Source: Escherichia phage phiWec179
Strand: one strand, 5' to 3'
Sequence record: LC739533.1
Length of the DNA stretch: 64,000 nt
Shown: positions 50,501 to 52,469 of the stretch, one piece after another
Layout of the letters: the number at the start of each line of letters is the position of its first letter
Position numbering within the stretch: the first letter of the stretch is position 1
Notes under the pieces: model-generated
The model's database searches: none
Seen by the model: only the letters and a program-made list of their open reading frames with translations
Told to the model about the DNA's origin: nothing
Made by a program: the position numbers and the translations under genes

Positions 50501-51157
50501 ATGACTATTAAACATATCTCTTTTGATGTATGGAACACACTGATCACAGCAAACCCCAATTACGCAGATATGCGAGCGTGGACTATCGCAAAATACGGGG
50601 ATATTACGGAAGTAGAAGCAAGAGCAGCTTACAAGAAGATCAAAAAGGAACTGGACAATGCCGCACTTCAGGGAACAGCCGAGTGTGCAGCATATGCCTG
50701 GGAAAGACTTGGTTACGAACTTGGGATAACACCTTTGAAGTCTGCAAAGCTTCGTTTCGAGTGTGAACAGTGGTTCCTTAAGTTTCCACCGCATGTGGCT
50801 GTGGATTTACCGATGCACTTGCTGTATCTTTCGGGGCGTTATGATTTGAGCATCAAGAGTAATACCAACTTCATATCAGGAGATATCTTGCGACGTGCCT
50901 GTAAGTTTGAAGGTTGGAATTGTTTTGAGTTCACACATTTCTCGGATGAAGCTTTACTTTGTAAACCAGATCCGCGATTCTTTGCTCGCACGATCACTTA
51001 TTCTCCAATCCCTCTGGTAGGGCAGGAAGTGTTGCACGTAGGTGATAGTGAAGAATATGATGGAAAATGTGTTGACGTAGGATTTAACTTCTGTCATATT
51101 AAGAACCCTAACGACTTGTTAGATAAACTTGCTAAAGGAGAACTTGTTAATGCGTAA
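50501..51157 (+). CDS. HAD-superfamily hydrolase (phosphatase-like)
   Basis: motif I FDVWNTL, motif III KPDPRFF, motif IV VGDSEEYD. Confidence 0.75.
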   Translation: MTIKHISFDVWNTLITANPNYADMRAWTIAKYGDITEVEARAAYKKIKKELDNAALQGTAECAAYAWERLGYELGITPLKSAKLRFECEQWFLKFPPHVAVDLPMHLLYLSGRYDLSIKSNTNFISGDILRRACKFEGWNCFEFTHFSDEALLCKPDPRFFARTITYSPIPLVGQEVLHVGDSEEYDGKCVDVGFNFCHIKNPNDLLDKLAKGELVNA

Positions 51158-51977
51158 TCAAACTCAAATCTTTGCTCACAAATTCGATAGTCTGGAAACT
51201 GCTCGCTTTGATATTCGTGACTATTCCAAACTGAAGTTTGGCAGCAACCAGGCGGCTCGCCGTATGGGGCGAACGCTGGCAGTCTCTTTCTATGACTTGG
51301 TAGTCAAGAATATGCCGGAAGAAGAATTTGTGGTGATTCCTTCACCTTACAACCATGTGCATAACGCAGCAACCATGATGACCAATCAGTTCATCAACTT
51401 CCTGAACCTGTTGCTGTTGAATCACAAGGGTAGCCGTGCAGTAGAATTGGATACGATCCACCGCAAGGTGAGTTACATTAACGATTATGGTTTCCTGGAC
51501 AAAGCGAGCCGTAAGAAACTGATTGATGGTGACACCTTCTATTGCAACAAAGATTTTTGGGGCAACAAGAAGCTGATCTTCATTGATGATGTGAACATCA
51601 CGGGAACTCATGAAGACAAACTGATTGAGATCCTGGATGAAAATAAAGTTACGAATGATGTTTACTTCCTGTATTTTGCGAAGTATACTGGTAATCAAGC
51701 AGACACAGAGGCTAAACTGAACTTCAACCATATTAACACGACAGATGCTTTTGTTAAGATGATCAATGAAGAATGTGATGCGCAGTGTCTTGTTCGTCCT
51801 ATCAAGTATTTGATGGGACAAACACCGGAAGAGTTTAAAATCATTCTTTCCCGTTTGCCGCACCAATACGTAGAAGCACTGTTCTTTGGGTGTCTTGGGG
51901 AAGGTTATGATAAGATCGAGAAGTATTCTGAAAACTTCGTCTTCCTGAACCGTTACTTTAACCAGCATATCCTGTAA
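51150..51977 (+). CDS. phosphoribosyltransferase-fold (PRTase type I) protein
   Basis: AAGGAG + ATG at 51150; PRPP-binding-like KLIFIDDVNITGTHED. Confidence 0.65.
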   Translation: MRNQTQIFAHKFDSLETARFDIRDYSKLKFGSNQAARRMGRTLAVSFYDLVVKNMPEEEFVVIPSPYNHVHNAATMMTNQFINFLNLLLLNHKGSRAVELDTIHRKVSYINDYGFLDKASRKKLIDGDTFYCNKDFWGNKKLIFIDDVNITGTHEDKLIEILDENKVTNDVYFLYFAKYTGNQADTEAKLNFNHINTTDAFVKMINEECDAQCLVRPIKYLMGQTPEEFKIILSRLPHQYVEALFFGCLGEGYDKIEKYSENFVFLNRYFNQHIL

Positions 51978-51986
51978 GGAGGGAAA

Positions 51987-52469
51987 ATGTTGAAGGTTGT
52001 TACTGGGAATCTGATCGATGCCGCCAAGAATGGGAAAGTGAACGTTATAGCCCACTGTTGTAACTGTATGTGTAATATGGGTGCAGGGATTGCTCCGCAA
52101 ATTAAACGAGCATTTCCTTATGCATATGCAGCCGACTTGGATACAGCGGCAGGTGATCAAAGCAAACTGGGTTCTTTTAGTTTAGGGGTGCCGGAGGAAG
52201 TGTCTGACCCACTGGTTTATAACCTGTACGGACAGTACCGTTACGGGTATAACGGTAAAGGTCGTCAGTTGGACTATGATGCCCTGTACGATGCTCTTGA
52301 GGCTATGGCAAAGGATCTCCACAAATGGGTGAACACATCTGCCAAACATAAGATTGGTCTACCTATGATCGGAGCAGGGTTGGCAGGAGGTAATTGGGCT
52401 ATCATTGAAGTGATGATTGAAGAAACTTTAGTAAAAACAGGTCACGATGTGACTATTTATAAACTTTAA
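51987..52469 (+). CDS. macrodomain (ADP-ribose binding/processing) protein
   Basis: VIAHCCNCMCNMGAGIAPQI aligns to macro IVNAAN..L.HGGGVA.AI; C-terminal IGLPMIGAGLAGG. Confidence 0.7.
   Translation: MLKVVTGNLIDAAKNGKVNVIAHCCNCMCNMGAGIAPQIKRAFPYAYAADLDTAAGDQSKLGSFSLGVPEEVSDPLVYNLYGQYRYGYNGKGRQLDYDALYDALEAMAKDLHKWVNTSAKHKIGLPMIGAGLAGGNWAIIEVMIEETLVKTGHDVTIYKL

What the first reader, a model, noticed from the sequence alone, without database searches (positions are those of the whole stretch)
50501..52469. HAD phosphatase, PRTase and macrodomain trio: candidate nucleotide / ADP-ribose metabolite module
Three consecutive overlapping genes encode a HAD hydrolase (FDVWNTL, KPDPRFF, VGDSEEYD), a type I PRTase-fold protein (KLIFIDDVNITGTHED) and a macrodomain (IAHCCNCMCNMGAGIA). 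PRTase + HAD is the core of the nucleoside-like-metabolite biosynthetic module predicted for Ter systems; a macrodomain adds ADP-ribose handling. Alternatives are NAD+/ADP-ribose salvage to counter NAD-depleting host immunity, or a nucleotide-modification route; the window also holds a NADAR gene at 30917-31444.
Basis: partly seen in the sequence, partly recalled or inferred. Interest (0 to 1): 0.8.

Follow-up and report, generated by a model that had tools for sequence, protein, structure and literature searches.

The report
Phage Ter gene cluster plus anti-DarT macrodomain
The three genes are real, but they are two separate things: a HAD–phosphoribosyltransferase pair from a phage-borne "Ter" stress/exclusion gene set whose chemistry is still unknown, and next to it a macrodomain related to phage T4 Tk.4/AdfM, which protects T4 against the host DarTG2 defence.

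Summary
The window is 100% identical to Escherichia phage phiWec181 (Phapecoctavirus). All three genes and all quoted motifs are present.

- **HAD–PRTase_3 pair.** The HAD gene sits directly upstream of PRTase_3 in all 9 other phage and plasmid loci I examined. The two are fused into one protein in the larger PRTase_3 relatives I scanned. HAD motif I is always D-x-W-x-T.
TerC, TelA, a TerF-type vWA protein and TerD lie downstream (52.8–60.0 kb). The pair is therefore the predicted Ter "nucleoside-like metabolite" module, inside a dispersed phage Ter system of a kind already noted in other phages.
- **Macrodomain.** It follows PRTase_3 only in Stephanstirmvirinae. Homologues occur in about 3,000 phage genomes, against 156 that carry PRTase_3. 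It is a homologue of T4 Tk.4/AdfM (35% identity), whose deletion sensitises T4 to DarTG2, and its best solved relative is SCO6735, which removes ADP-ribose from thymidine in DNA.

The trio read as one ADP-ribose or NAD pathway is not supported. Each part is a new member of a known kind. The value of the locus is a tractable E. coli phage model for the untested Ter biosynthetic step.

The parts
50501..51157 (+). HAD-superfamily hydrolase of the clade that accompanies PRTase_3. Motif I is D9-V-W11-N-T13, with Trp in place of the usual Asp+2. Motif II is S120-N121, motif III is K155, motif IV is G181-D182...D187.
   Evidence: Pfam Hydrolase E 1.9e-4, below cut-off. NCBIfam HAD-IA subfamilies, weak. 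PDB 2om6 E 1e-4, with the same FDVWNTL motif. phrog_14393 E 9e-114. Motif residues invariant in 10 loci. All 14 fused HAD-PRTase_3 proteins checked carry D-x-W-x-T.
51150..51977 (+). Type I phosphoribosyltransferase of family PRTase_3 (ComF-like). The PRPP loop is L-I-F-I-D146-D147-V-N-I-T151-G152-T-H154, followed by a family-specific C-terminal helical domain (residues ~186-275). The start overlaps the HAD stop by 8 nt.
51987..52469 (+). Stand-alone macrodomain of the ALC1-like/TARG1/DarG/SCO6735 clade. It is a homologue of T4 Tk.4 (AdfM) and a probable DNA ADP-ribosylglycohydrolase directed against DarT2.
   Evidence: PF01661, 23 bits. PDB: SCO6735 6e-13, BT1257, DarG 5m31 3e-7, TARG1 7e-7. 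NCBIfam DarG 2e-11 and PADLOC DarG 3e-12. T4 Tk.4 35% identity, E 6e-23. H23, N26 and Q83 align with SCO6735 H24, N27 and Q85.
52483..52704 (+). 73-aa hydrophobic (probably membrane) protein, last gene before the TerC promoter. It is conserved with the cluster in phi92 (61% identity). Function unknown.
   Evidence: phrog_16065 E 1e-40. tblastn to phi92.
52708..52766 (+). Sigma-70-like promoter (TTGACA-16-TAAGAT, 52708-52735) followed by a 7-bp stem-loop (52748-52766) at the 5' end of the TerC transcript. It marks TerC as a separate transcription unit.
   Evidence: phAPEC8 has a 'host dependent promoter' annotated at the same position. Two compensatory pair changes in the stem between phiWec181 and phi92.
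52786..53760 (+). TerC/Alx-family integral membrane protein.
   Evidence: PF03741 E 1e-39. TIGR03718, 323.8 bits against a cut-off of 246.4. 93% identical to phi92 gp182.
55871..56983 (+). TelA-family protein (toxic anion resistance).
   Evidence: PF05816 E 2e-34. 78% identical to phi92 gp178.
58088..58888 (+). vWA domain protein of the TerF C-terminal type.
   Evidence: PF10138 E 3e-37.
59405..60007 (+). TerD-domain protein.
   Evidence: PF02342 E 2e-29. Its phage distribution mirrors that of PRTase_3.
49897..50499 (+). Uncharacterised 200-aa protein whose stop codon lies 1 nt before the HAD start. It is probably co-transcribed but is not a conserved part of the module, being absent at this position in phi92.
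   Evidence: phrog_22504. AF2 pLDDT 82. No specific fold match. PADLOC 'AbiEi' E 7e-13. tblastn shows absence in phi92.
30917..31444 (-). NADAR-domain protein, not physically linked to the cluster. It is the likely guanine-specific counterpart (AdfN-like, anti-DarT1) of the macrodomain.
   Evidence: PF08719 E 1e-33. Phage NADARs from several lineages reverse DarT1 (PMC11825919).

Best explanation
The interval holds two functionally separate units that share an operon.

(1) The HAD gene (50501-51157) and the PRTase_3 gene (51150-51977) are a translationally coupled two-enzyme cassette. It is the biosynthetic arm of a phage-borne Ter system whose other parts lie downstream: TerC, TelA, a TerF-type vWA protein and TerD. 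Inferred mechanism: the type I PRTase joins an unidentified nucleophile (a base-like molecule) to C1 of PRPP, giving a ribosyl-5'-phosphate. The Mg-dependent HAD enzyme then removes or transfers the phosphate, giving a nucleoside-like small molecule. That molecule would act with the TerD, TerC, TelA and vWA membrane-associated proteins in the infected cell, probably to alter the envelope or ion handling and to exclude competitors. This is the role proposed for phage Ter genes by Iyer et al. 2021.

(2) The macrodomain (51987-52469) is an orphan-antitoxin-type counter-defence enzyme homologous to T4 Tk.4/AdfM and to SCO6735. It most likely removes ADP-ribose that host DarT2 places on thymidines of phage ssDNA. 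The NADAR protein at 30917-31444 would do the same for DarT1's guanine adducts.

Shown here: domain and family memberships, the PRTase fold, conserved catalytic residues, gene order, fusions, and distributions. Inferred: substrates, product, direction of the reactions, and all biological roles.
For: HAD-PRTase_3 as a unit:
- PRTase_3 membership and fold.
- HAD lies immediately upstream of PRTase_3, abutting or overlapping it, in phi92, XaC1, two Rhizobium phages, CcrColossus, Gurke, and Sinorhizobium, Rhizobium and Hymenobacter plasmids.
- Natural HAD(N)-PRTase_3(C) fusions exist, plus a PRTase-HAD-PRTase_3 triple fusion. All carry the clade-specific D-x-W-x-T motif.

Ter linkage:
- TerC, TelA, vWA-TerF and TerD are in the window.
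- Hymenobacter plasmid: HAD-PRTase_3 lies next to three TerD genes, two vWA genes, a PP2C phosphatase, a kinase and a DUF475 gene.
- Metagenomic contigs: TerD-[HAD-PRTase_3 fusion]-vWA-TerF, and TelA-x-vWA-TerF-HAD-PRTase_3-TerC.
- TerD (145 phage records) and PRTase_3 (156 records) occur in the same unrelated phage lineages: Stephanstirmvirinae, 7 Brevundimonas phages and 4 Caulobacter phages.
- Published prediction of phage Ter PRTase/HAD modules: PMC7824862.

Macrodomain as a separate unit:
- About 3,000 phage records carry it, against 156 with PRTase_3.
- It is absent beside HAD-PRTase_3 outside Stephanstirmvirinae.
- Equally close relatives (48-51% identity) in Vequintavirinae sit in other contexts.
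- It shares 35% identity (E 6e-23) with T4 Tk.4. Deleting tk.4 sensitises T4 to DarTG2 (preprint 10.1101/2025.11.20.689424).
- Its best solved relative, SCO6735, hydrolyses thymidine-linked ADP-ribose. The residues shown essential there (H24, N27, Q85) align with H23, N26 and Q83.
Against: - No enzyme of the Ter HAD/PRTase module has been characterised in any paper I could find. Substrate, product and even the direction of the reaction are unknown.
- The HAD lacks the Asp+2 general acid/base (Trp is invariant), so simple phosphatase activity is not assured.
- The closest solved structure is H. pylori ComF, a competence protein. From my own knowledge, no PRTase catalysis has been demonstrated for it.
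- The macrodomain keeps its place directly after PRTase_3, with its own strong RBS, in both genera of Stephanstirmvirinae despite about 50% protein divergence. That could reflect a functional tie rather than inherited synteny.
- The AdfM evidence is one knock-out in a preprint, on a protein only 35% identical, with no biochemistry.
- The DarG/TARG1 catalytic Lys is replaced by Gln, as in SCO6735.
Confidence: 0.6

Rival explanations
1. The three genes form one pathway. PRTase and HAD would build a ribosyl or ADP-ribose-related metabolite, and the macrodomain would process it, for example by removing a 1''-phosphate or an acyl group, or by releasing ADP-ribose from a conjugate.
For: The order HAD-PRTase-macro is kept in Phapecoctavirus and in phi92 (Justusliebigvirus) at about 50-65% protein identity. 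All three lie in one apparent transcription unit that ends before the TerC promoter. Relatives of this macrodomain clade include Poa1p, an ADP-ribose 1''-phosphate phosphatase (PDB 6lfu, E 3e-5).
Against: No macrodomain lies next to HAD-PRTase_3 in the 9 non-Stephanstirmvirinae loci examined: 5 phages, 3 plasmids and contig L016. None is fused to it in the larger PRTase_3 relatives scanned. The macrodomain family is about 20 times more widespread in phages than PRTase_3. T4 and the Vequintavirinae carry the macrodomain without HAD/PRTase. A sufficient independent function is known for the T4 homologue.
Confidence: 0.08
2. The trio is an NAD+/ADP-ribose salvage or reconstitution route that counters NAD-depleting host immunity.
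For: A PRTase and an ADP-ribose-binding domain are adjacent. The phage also carries NADAR. A distant relative of the upstream ORF200 lies near NAMPT and NMNAT-NUDIX genes on another contig.
Against: Pfam matches the PRTase only to PRTase_3, and its fold is that of type I PRTases, closest to ComF. It is therefore not a Nampt-type enzyme. None of the genes scanned between 45.2 and 63.5 kb is a PRPP-synthetase-like pyrophosphokinase, an NMN adenylyltransferase or a Nampt. In bacteria and phages the pair associates with TerD, TerC, TelA and vWA genes, not with NAD genes.
Confidence: 0.04
3. HAD-PRTase_3 makes a modified nucleotide precursor for phage DNA or RNA modification, or it cleans the nucleotide pool, alongside the neighbouring anaerobic ribonucleotide reductase genes. 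It would have nothing to do with the Ter proteins.
For: The genes lie directly after nrdD and nrdG. The HAD has weak similarity to YjjG-type non-canonical pyrimidine nucleotidases. Putative glycosyltransferases lie at 61.9-63.5 kb.
Against: Linkage to Ter genes recurs in unrelated genomes, whereas nrdDG is not near the pair in any non-Stephanstirmvirinae locus examined. No base-modifying or DNA-transferase gene is adjacent.
Confidence: 0.1
4. The PRTase_3 protein is not a catalyst. It would be a PRPP-, nucleotide- or nucleic-acid-binding regulator (as proposed for ComF-type proteins), and the HAD partner a phosphoryl-transfer switch.
For: The top structural match is ComF. The HAD lacks the Asp+2 general acid/base, as do HAD members that hold a long-lived phospho-aspartate such as P-type ATPases (established knowledge).
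Against: The full PRPP-binding signature and several charged residues are invariant across 105 diverse sequences. Tandem and fused PRTase domains look like a biosynthetic assembly.
Confidence: 0.12

Closest known systems
Ter-associated biosynthetic module (PRTase + HAD phosphoesterase), predicted by Anantharaman, Iyer & Aravind 2012 and reported in phages by Iyer et al. 2021 (PMC7824862)
   Same: The PRTase belongs to Pfam PRTase_3 (PF15610). The HAD partner is immediately upstream. It is linked genomically to TerC, TerD, TelA and a TerF-type vWA protein. Iyer et al. explicitly noted phage-borne versions in Acinetobacter phage ME3 'and certain other related smaller tailed phages'.
   Different: Only the minimal HAD + one PRTase pair is present. 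No ATP-grasp, TIM-barrel lyase or TerB gene was found among the genes scanned. The Ter genes are spread over about 9.5 kb among unrelated small genes and split over at least two transcription units. A macrodomain gene sits inside the cluster.
T4 Tk.4 = AdfM, the anti-DarT factor macrodomain (HIDEN-SEQ preprint 10.1101/2025.11.20.689424)
   Same: A stand-alone macrodomain of about 155-160 aa from a virulent E. coli phage. It shares 35% identity over 147 residues, the IAHxCNC and P-x-IGAG-x-x-x-GNW motifs, and Gln at the catalytic-Lys position. It has no DarT-binding C-terminal domain.
   Different: Different phage family and genomic context. It was not tested experimentally. In phi92 the homologue carries an extra N-terminal region of about 85 aa.
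Streptomyces coelicolor SCO6735 (PDB 5e3b; PMC9411070) and the ALC1-like macrodomains DarG and TARG1
   Same: SCO6735 is the best solved-structure match (E 6e-13). Equivalents of SCO6735 H24, N27, Q85 and the GLAGG phosphate loop are conserved. All tested members of this clade remove ADP-ribose from thymidine in ssDNA.
   Different: SCO6735 K34 and K89, which help bind DNA, align with Ala and Gly here, although Arg and Lys lie nearby in the loop. The DarG/TARG1 catalytic Lys is absent. This is a phage protein, not a cellular one.
Phage Ter clusters reported descriptively (Klebsiella phage phiKp34: terC, terF-vWA, terD, telA; PMC8386662)
   Same: The same set of TerC, TerF-vWA, TerD and TelA genes in a virulent phage.
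   Different: That report does not mention a HAD/PRTase pair. Here the biosynthetic pair is present.

Membership tests
Ter-associated HAD-PRTase biosynthetic module | PRTase belongs to Pfam PRTase_3 (PF15610) | tested here: met
   140.8 bits against a cut-off of 28.7, E 6.7e-41, covering 257 of 264 profile positions.
Ter-associated HAD-PRTase biosynthetic module | Type I PRTase fold with an intact PRPP-binding loop (acidic pair followed by T-G) | tested here: met
Ter-associated HAD-PRTase biosynthetic module | A HAD-superfamily gene is the conserved partner | tested here: met
   HAD is directly upstream in 9 of 9 other loci. HAD-PRTase_3 fusion proteins exist.
Ter-associated HAD-PRTase biosynthetic module | HAD partner has a complete phosphatase catalytic set (motif I DxDxT, motif II S/T, motif III K, motif IV DD) | tested here: inconclusive
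   The nucleophile D9, T13, S120, K155, D182 and D187 are invariant. The Asp+2 general acid/base is an invariant Trp in this whole clade.
Ter-associated HAD-PRTase biosynthetic module | Genomic association with Ter proteins (TerD, TerC, TelA, TerF/TerY vWA) | tested here: met
   All four are in the window within 8 kb downstream. The same association is seen in a Hymenobacter plasmid and two metagenomic contigs. Phage distributions of TerD and PRTase_3 coincide.
Ter-associated HAD-PRTase biosynthetic module | Produces a nucleoside-like metabolite | not testable with these tools
   No biochemical study was found. This needs enzymology and metabolomics.
AdfM / Tk.4 anti-DarT2 macrodomain | Macrodomain fold of the ALC1-like (DarG/TARG1/SCO6735) class | tested here: met
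   PF01661 just above its cut-off. PDB hits: SCO6735 6e-13, BT1257 3e-9, DarG 3e-7, TARG1 7e-7. DarG profiles match over the macrodomain part only.
AdfM / Tk.4 anti-DarT2 macrodomain | Sequence homology to T4 Tk.4 | tested here: met
   35% identity over 147 aa, pairwise E 6e-23. tblastn finds genes annotated tk.4 in T4-like phages.
AdfM / Tk.4 anti-DarT2 macrodomain | Catalytic residues of a DNA-ADP-ribose hydrolase | tested here: met
   H23, N26 and Q83 align with SCO6735 H24, N27 and Q85, which are essential by mutagenesis (PMC9411070). See the alignments. The Lys used by DarG and TARG1 is not present.
AdfM / Tk.4 anti-DarT2 macrodomain | Protects the phage from DarTG2 and removes ADP-ribose from thymidine in DNA | not testable with these tools
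   This needs a phage knock-out on a DarTG2 host and an in vitro de-ADP-ribosylation assay.
DarG antitoxin (full-length, type II/IV toxin-antitoxin system) | Macrodomain plus a C-terminal DarT-binding domain, encoded next to darT | tested here: not met
   The protein is 160 aa and a single domain. NCBIfam DarG scores 43.7 bits against a cut-off of 250. No darT gene is adjacent.
Phage NAD+ reconstitution pathways (NARP1/NARP2) | Nampt-like PRTase together with a PRPP-synthetase-like pyrophosphokinase or an NMN adenylyltransferase | tested here: not met
   Pfam matches the PRTase only to PRTase_3, and its fold is type I and ComF-like. No such partner was found among the neighbouring genes scanned.

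The most novel reading that the evidence does not exclude
In Stephanstirmvirinae the DarG/SCO6735-type macrodomain may have been recruited into the Ter HAD-PRTase_3 operon because it acts on the pathway's ribosyl product or on an ADP-ribosylated intermediate or target. The trio would then be a true three-enzyme route that makes or resets a nucleoside-type signal controlling the phage's TerC, TerD, TelA and vWA membrane apparatus. This would be the first link between Ter chemistry and ADP-ribose biology.
Probability: 0.07. Interest if true: 0.75.

Novelty: new member of a known kind. Interest (0 to 1): 0.38.

Why it matters
The chemistry of the Ter system's predicted "nucleoside-like metabolite" has been an open question since 2012, and I found no experimental study of its PRTase or HAD enzymes. 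This phage group offers a minimal version of the system: one HAD, one PRTase, TerC, TelA, a TerF-type vWA protein and TerD. It infects laboratory E. coli and has many sequenced relatives, including phages of the BASEL collection. The prediction can therefore be tested directly by knock-outs, metabolomics and enzymology. The invariant Trp at the HAD Asp+2 position and the natural HAD-PRTase fusions give specific mutational and structural handles. Separately, the macrodomain and NADAR genes suggest that these phages carry both known kinds of orphan-antitoxin enzymes against DNA ADP-ribosylation by DarT2 and DarT1. That bears on predicting host range for therapeutic phages.

Tried and rejected
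2. **Mn riboswitch (yybP-ykoY) upstream of the Alx-type TerC.** No Rfam family reaches its gathering score anywhere in the window. The gap is only 81 nt.
3. **TerC as a recent capture of host alx.** There is no DNA-level match in 5,426 E. coli genomes.
4. **NAD salvage.** The PRTase is not Nampt-like and has no partner enzymes nearby.
6. **Literature.** The 2012 Ter paper (PMC4104200) is not held. Searches for PRTase_3/PF15610 returned nothing.
7. **The afdb50 fold library** was unavailable.
8. **Additional Ter components.** Pfam scans of the small intervening ORFs found none, such as TerB or an ATP-grasp enzyme.
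Full report
**Identity of the window.** The 4.4-kb stretch around the finding is 100% identical to Escherichia phage phiWec181 (LC739534.1; Phapecoctavirus, Stephanstirmvirinae). It is 78-94% identical to about 70 related coliphage genomes. The finding therefore lies in a virulent E. coli myovirus of about 150 kb, in a rightward block of early-type genes that begins with nrdD and nrdG.

**Observation.**
- The three ORFs exist as described, on the + strand: 50501-51157 (218 aa), 51150-51977 (275 aa from the annotated ATG, which has an AAGGAG site 9 nt upstream; a TTG at 51129 is the first possible start) and 51987-52469 (160 aa).
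- HAD and PRTase overlap by 8 nt, and the same overlap occurs in phi92. PRTase and the macrodomain gene are separated by 9 nt containing AAGGAGG, so "three overlapping genes" is only partly accurate.
- PHROG profile matches (E 9e-114, 7e-142, 6e-58) exclude chance ORFs.

**Domain calls.**
- *HAD.* The match is weak in Pfam (22.3 bits against a cut-off of 26.4) and NCBIfam, and modest against PDB 2om6 (E 1e-4). An alignment of ten orthologues shows invariant D9, T13, S120-N121, K155, G181-D182 and D187, which are HAD motifs I-IV. One feature stands out. The Asp+2 general acid/base of HAD phosphatases is an invariant Trp (D-x-W-x-T) in all ten orthologues, in 2om6, and in all 14 fused homologues inspected. 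The fold assignment is safe. "Phosphatase" is an inference.
- *Macrodomain.* It passes Pfam narrowly. It matches SCO6735 (E 6e-13), BT1257, Thermus DarG, TARG1 and Poa1p among solved structures, and the DarG profiles of NCBIfam and PADLOC over the macrodomain part only.

- Downstream on the same strand lie four Ter-system genes: a TerC/Alx-family membrane protein (52786-53760; PF03741 E 1e-39; TIGR03718 at 324 bits, above its cut-off), a TelA protein (55871-56983; E 2e-34), a vWA protein of the TerF C-terminal type (58088-58888; E 3e-37) and a TerD protein (59405-60007; E 2e-29).
- The HAD-PRTase pair is therefore embedded in a dispersed phage-borne Ter system spanning about 50.5-60.0 kb.
- A sigma-70-like promoter (TTGACA-16-TAAGAT, 52708-52735) separates the 73-aa membrane-protein gene from TerC. 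The phAPEC8 annotators placed a "host dependent promoter" at the same spot. The transcription units thus appear to be (orf63)-ORF200-HAD-PRTase-macro-TM73, and then TerC onward.

**Is HAD-PRTase_3 a unit? Yes.**
- HAD lies immediately upstream of PRTase_3, abutting or overlapping it, in phi92, Xanthomonas jumbo phage XaC1, two Rhizobium phages, Caulobacter phage CcrColossus, Brevundimonas phage Gurke, and plasmids of Sinorhizobium, Rhizobium and Hymenobacter.
- An exhaustive HMMER search of 1.84 billion representative proteins finds 495 PRTase_3 clusters.
- Many hits of 490-550 aa carry PRTase_3 in their C-terminal half. Pfam detects an N-terminal HAD (Hydrolase) domain in 4 of the 6 I scanned, and the two without a Pfam hit still carry the D-x-W-x-T motif. 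The domain order matches the gene order.
- One protein is a PRTase-HAD-PRTase_3 triple fusion, and others are tandem PRTases.

**Is the pair tied to Ter? Yes.**
- On the Hymenobacter plasmid the pair is divergently adjacent to three TerD genes, two vWA genes, a PP2C phosphatase, a kinase and a DUF475 gene.
- One metagenomic contig reads TerD-[HAD-PRTase_3 fusion]-vWA-TerF. Another reads TelA-x-vWA-TerF-HAD-PRTase_3-TerC.
- Among 50,697 phage records, PRTase_3 occurs in 156 and TerD in 145. They fall in the same unrelated lineages: Stephanstirmvirinae, all 7 Brevundimonas phages and all 4 Caulobacter phages listed. The Rhizobium phages carry PRTase_3 without a detectable TerD.
- This matches the published computational picture. 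Iyer et al. 2021 describe the Ter system's biosynthetic arm as PRTases plus HAD enzymes. They note a fairly complete version in Acinetobacter phage ME3 "and certain other related smaller tailed phages", and they propose a role in competition with superinfecting phages (PMC7824862). Ter clusters in virulent phages have also been reported descriptively (PMC8386662).
- I found no experimental work on the PRTase or HAD enzymes.

**Is the macrodomain part of that unit? The evidence says no.**
- It follows PRTase_3 only in Stephanstirmvirinae. The phi92 homologue (gp185, 49% identical) has an extra N-terminal region.
- It is absent beside the pair in every other phage, plasmid and metagenomic locus with flanking sequence, including the compact TelA-vWA-HAD-PRTase-TerC contig. 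It is never part of the fusions.
- Homologues occur in about 3,000 phage genomes. The closest ones outside the subfamily (48-51% identity, as close as phi92's) are in Vequintavirinae, in contexts without HAD, PRTase or TerC.
- The family includes T4 Tk.4. The pairwise comparison gives 35% identity over 147 residues, E 6e-23. A 2025 preprint shows that tk.4 is the single T4 gene depleted in a transposon library on a DarTG2 host. A clean deletion sensitises T4 to DarTG2. The authors rename the gene adfM.
- SCO6735, the best solved match, removes thymidine-linked ADP-ribose from DNA and rescues cells from DarT. Q85A abolishes its activity, N27S nearly abolishes it, and His24 was also probed by mutagenesis. 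It lacks the Lys of DarG and TARG1 (PMC9411070). The phage protein has H23, N26 and Q83 at those positions, plus the GLAGG loop.
- The NADAR gene at 30917-31444 (minus strand; E 1e-33) fits the same theme. Phage NADARs from three lineages reverse DarT1 guanine ADP-ribosylation (PMC11825919).

**Mechanism I commit to (confidence about 0.6 for the whole statement).**
- *Unit 1.* PRTase_3 condenses PRPP with an unidentified base-like acceptor to form a ribotide. The D-x-W-x-T HAD removes or transfers the phosphate to give a nucleoside-like molecule. That molecule works with TerD, TerC, TelA and vWA in the infected cell's envelope. The family, fold, residues, pairing, fusions and Ter linkage are shown. 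The substrates, product and biological outcome are inferred.
- *Unit 2.* The macrodomain is an AdfM-type DNA ADP-ribosylglycohydrolase countering DarT2. Homology and residues are shown. Activity is inferred.
- *Main caveats.* The missing Asp+2 in the HAD. ComF, for which I know of no demonstrated PRTase catalysis, as nearest structure. Retention of the macrodomain gene after PRTase_3 in two genera. The AdfM evidence being a single preprint on a 35%-identical protein.

**Rivals.**

| Reading | Confidence | Main reasons |
|---|---|---|
| One three-enzyme ADP-ribose pathway | 0.08 | Disfavoured by distribution and fusions |
| NAD+ reconstitution | 0.04 | Wrong PRTase class, no partner enzymes |
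| Nucleotide-pool or DNA-modification route unrelated to Ter | 0.10 | Recurrent Ter linkage; nrdDG not near the pair in any non-Stephanstirmvirinae locus examined |
| Non-catalytic, ComF-like binding role | 0.12 | Invariant PRPP signature argues against it |

**Novelty and interest.** Both components are new members of known kinds: the Ter HAD/PRTase module, predicted in 2012 and noted in phages in 2021, and the Tk.4/AdfM macrodomain, shown in 2025. The remaining interest (0.38) is that this is a minimal, genetically tractable E. coli phage version of an uncharacterised pathway, with clear handles: the fusions, the invariant Trp and the PRPP loop.

**Side observations.**
- The upstream ORF200 (49897-50499) is a well-folded protein (pLDDT 82) with invariant His, Lys, Arg and Glu residues on alternate strand positions. 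It has no informative fold match. It hits a PADLOC "AbiEi" profile (E 7e-13) and has a NUDIX-fused distant relative. My 2H-phosphoesterase idea for it was refuted.
- TerC is 93% identical between phiWec181 and phi92, while its neighbours are 49-65% identical.
- A stem-loop at the 5' end of the TerC transcript shows two compensatory pair changes between the two genera.

Noticed in passing
window 49897-50499 (+): A 200-aa protein whose stop lies 1 nt before the HAD start. The AF2 model (pLDDT 82) shows two ferredoxin-like halves. H27, H29, T31, R96, K98, E100, E121, H123, K125, H183 and E185 are invariant. No PDB fold match beyond generic HMA domains. Structural relatives are uncharacterised proteins of other phages and of giant eukaryotic viruses. 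It hits PADLOC 'AbiEi' profiles at E 7e-13. One distant relative is fused to a NUDIX domain, and another lies near NAMPT/NMNAT genes. It is absent at this position in phi92.
   Followed up: partly
window 30917-31444 (-): A NADAR-domain protein (PF08719, E 1e-33) with homologues in 718 phage records. It is probably an AdfN-type enzyme that reverses guanine ADP-ribosylation by DarT1. The phage would then carry both known kinds of orphan DarG-like enzymes.
   Followed up: partly
window 52786-53760 vs L002 8124-9101: TerC is 93% identical in protein between phiWec181 and phi92, while the flanking genes are 49-65% identical (TelA 78%, TerD about 81%). This suggests unusually strong constraint or recent exchange. 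There is no DNA-level similarity to any of 5,426 E. coli genomes, so it is not a recent host alx capture.
   Followed up: partly
window 52708-52766 (+): A sigma-70-like promoter followed by a 7-bp stem-loop (GCGGGGA/TCCCCGC) at the predicted 5' end of the TerC mRNA. In phi92 the stem is GCGGAGG/CCTCCGC, which is two compensatory pair changes. No Rfam family matches.
   Followed up: partly
window 61896-63513 (+): Two adjacent putative glycosyltransferases (weak GT2, TET-associated glycosyltransferase and GT1-like hits, E 1e-3 to 4e-4). They could hint at a sugar modification of DNA or of a surface structure.
   Followed up: no
window 55284-55874 (+) and 60105-60626 (+): A SprT-like metalloprotease-domain protein (PF10263, E 2e-9) and a SleB-type cell-wall hydrolase (PF07486, E 6e-17) lie interspersed among the Ter genes.
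   Followed up: no
phage records MG065645/MG065689/MG065650 ('Campylobacter phage'), OR584014 ('Pseudomonas phage PsgM04F'), OP562383 ('Acinetobacter phage ABPW7'): Records labelled with non-enterobacterial hosts carry Stephanstirmvirinae genes. The PsgM04F record is 94% identical in DNA to this region, and the others give 65-91% protein matches for PRTase and TerD. The host labels are probably wrong or reflect contaminating coliphages.
   Followed up: no
L002 1218-3296 (phi92 nrdD) vs window 47398-49212: phi92 nrdD is annotated as split and spliced, and matches the window's NrdD in two pieces with a gap of about 280 nt. NrdD in phiWec181 is uninterrupted.
   Followed up: no
L015 (metagenomic contig SRR23817491_7112): A phage-like contig carries NADAR about 4.5 kb upstream of TerD-[HAD-PRTase_3 fusion]-vWA-TerF. 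This is a second genome in which NADAR and a Ter module coexist.
   Followed up: no
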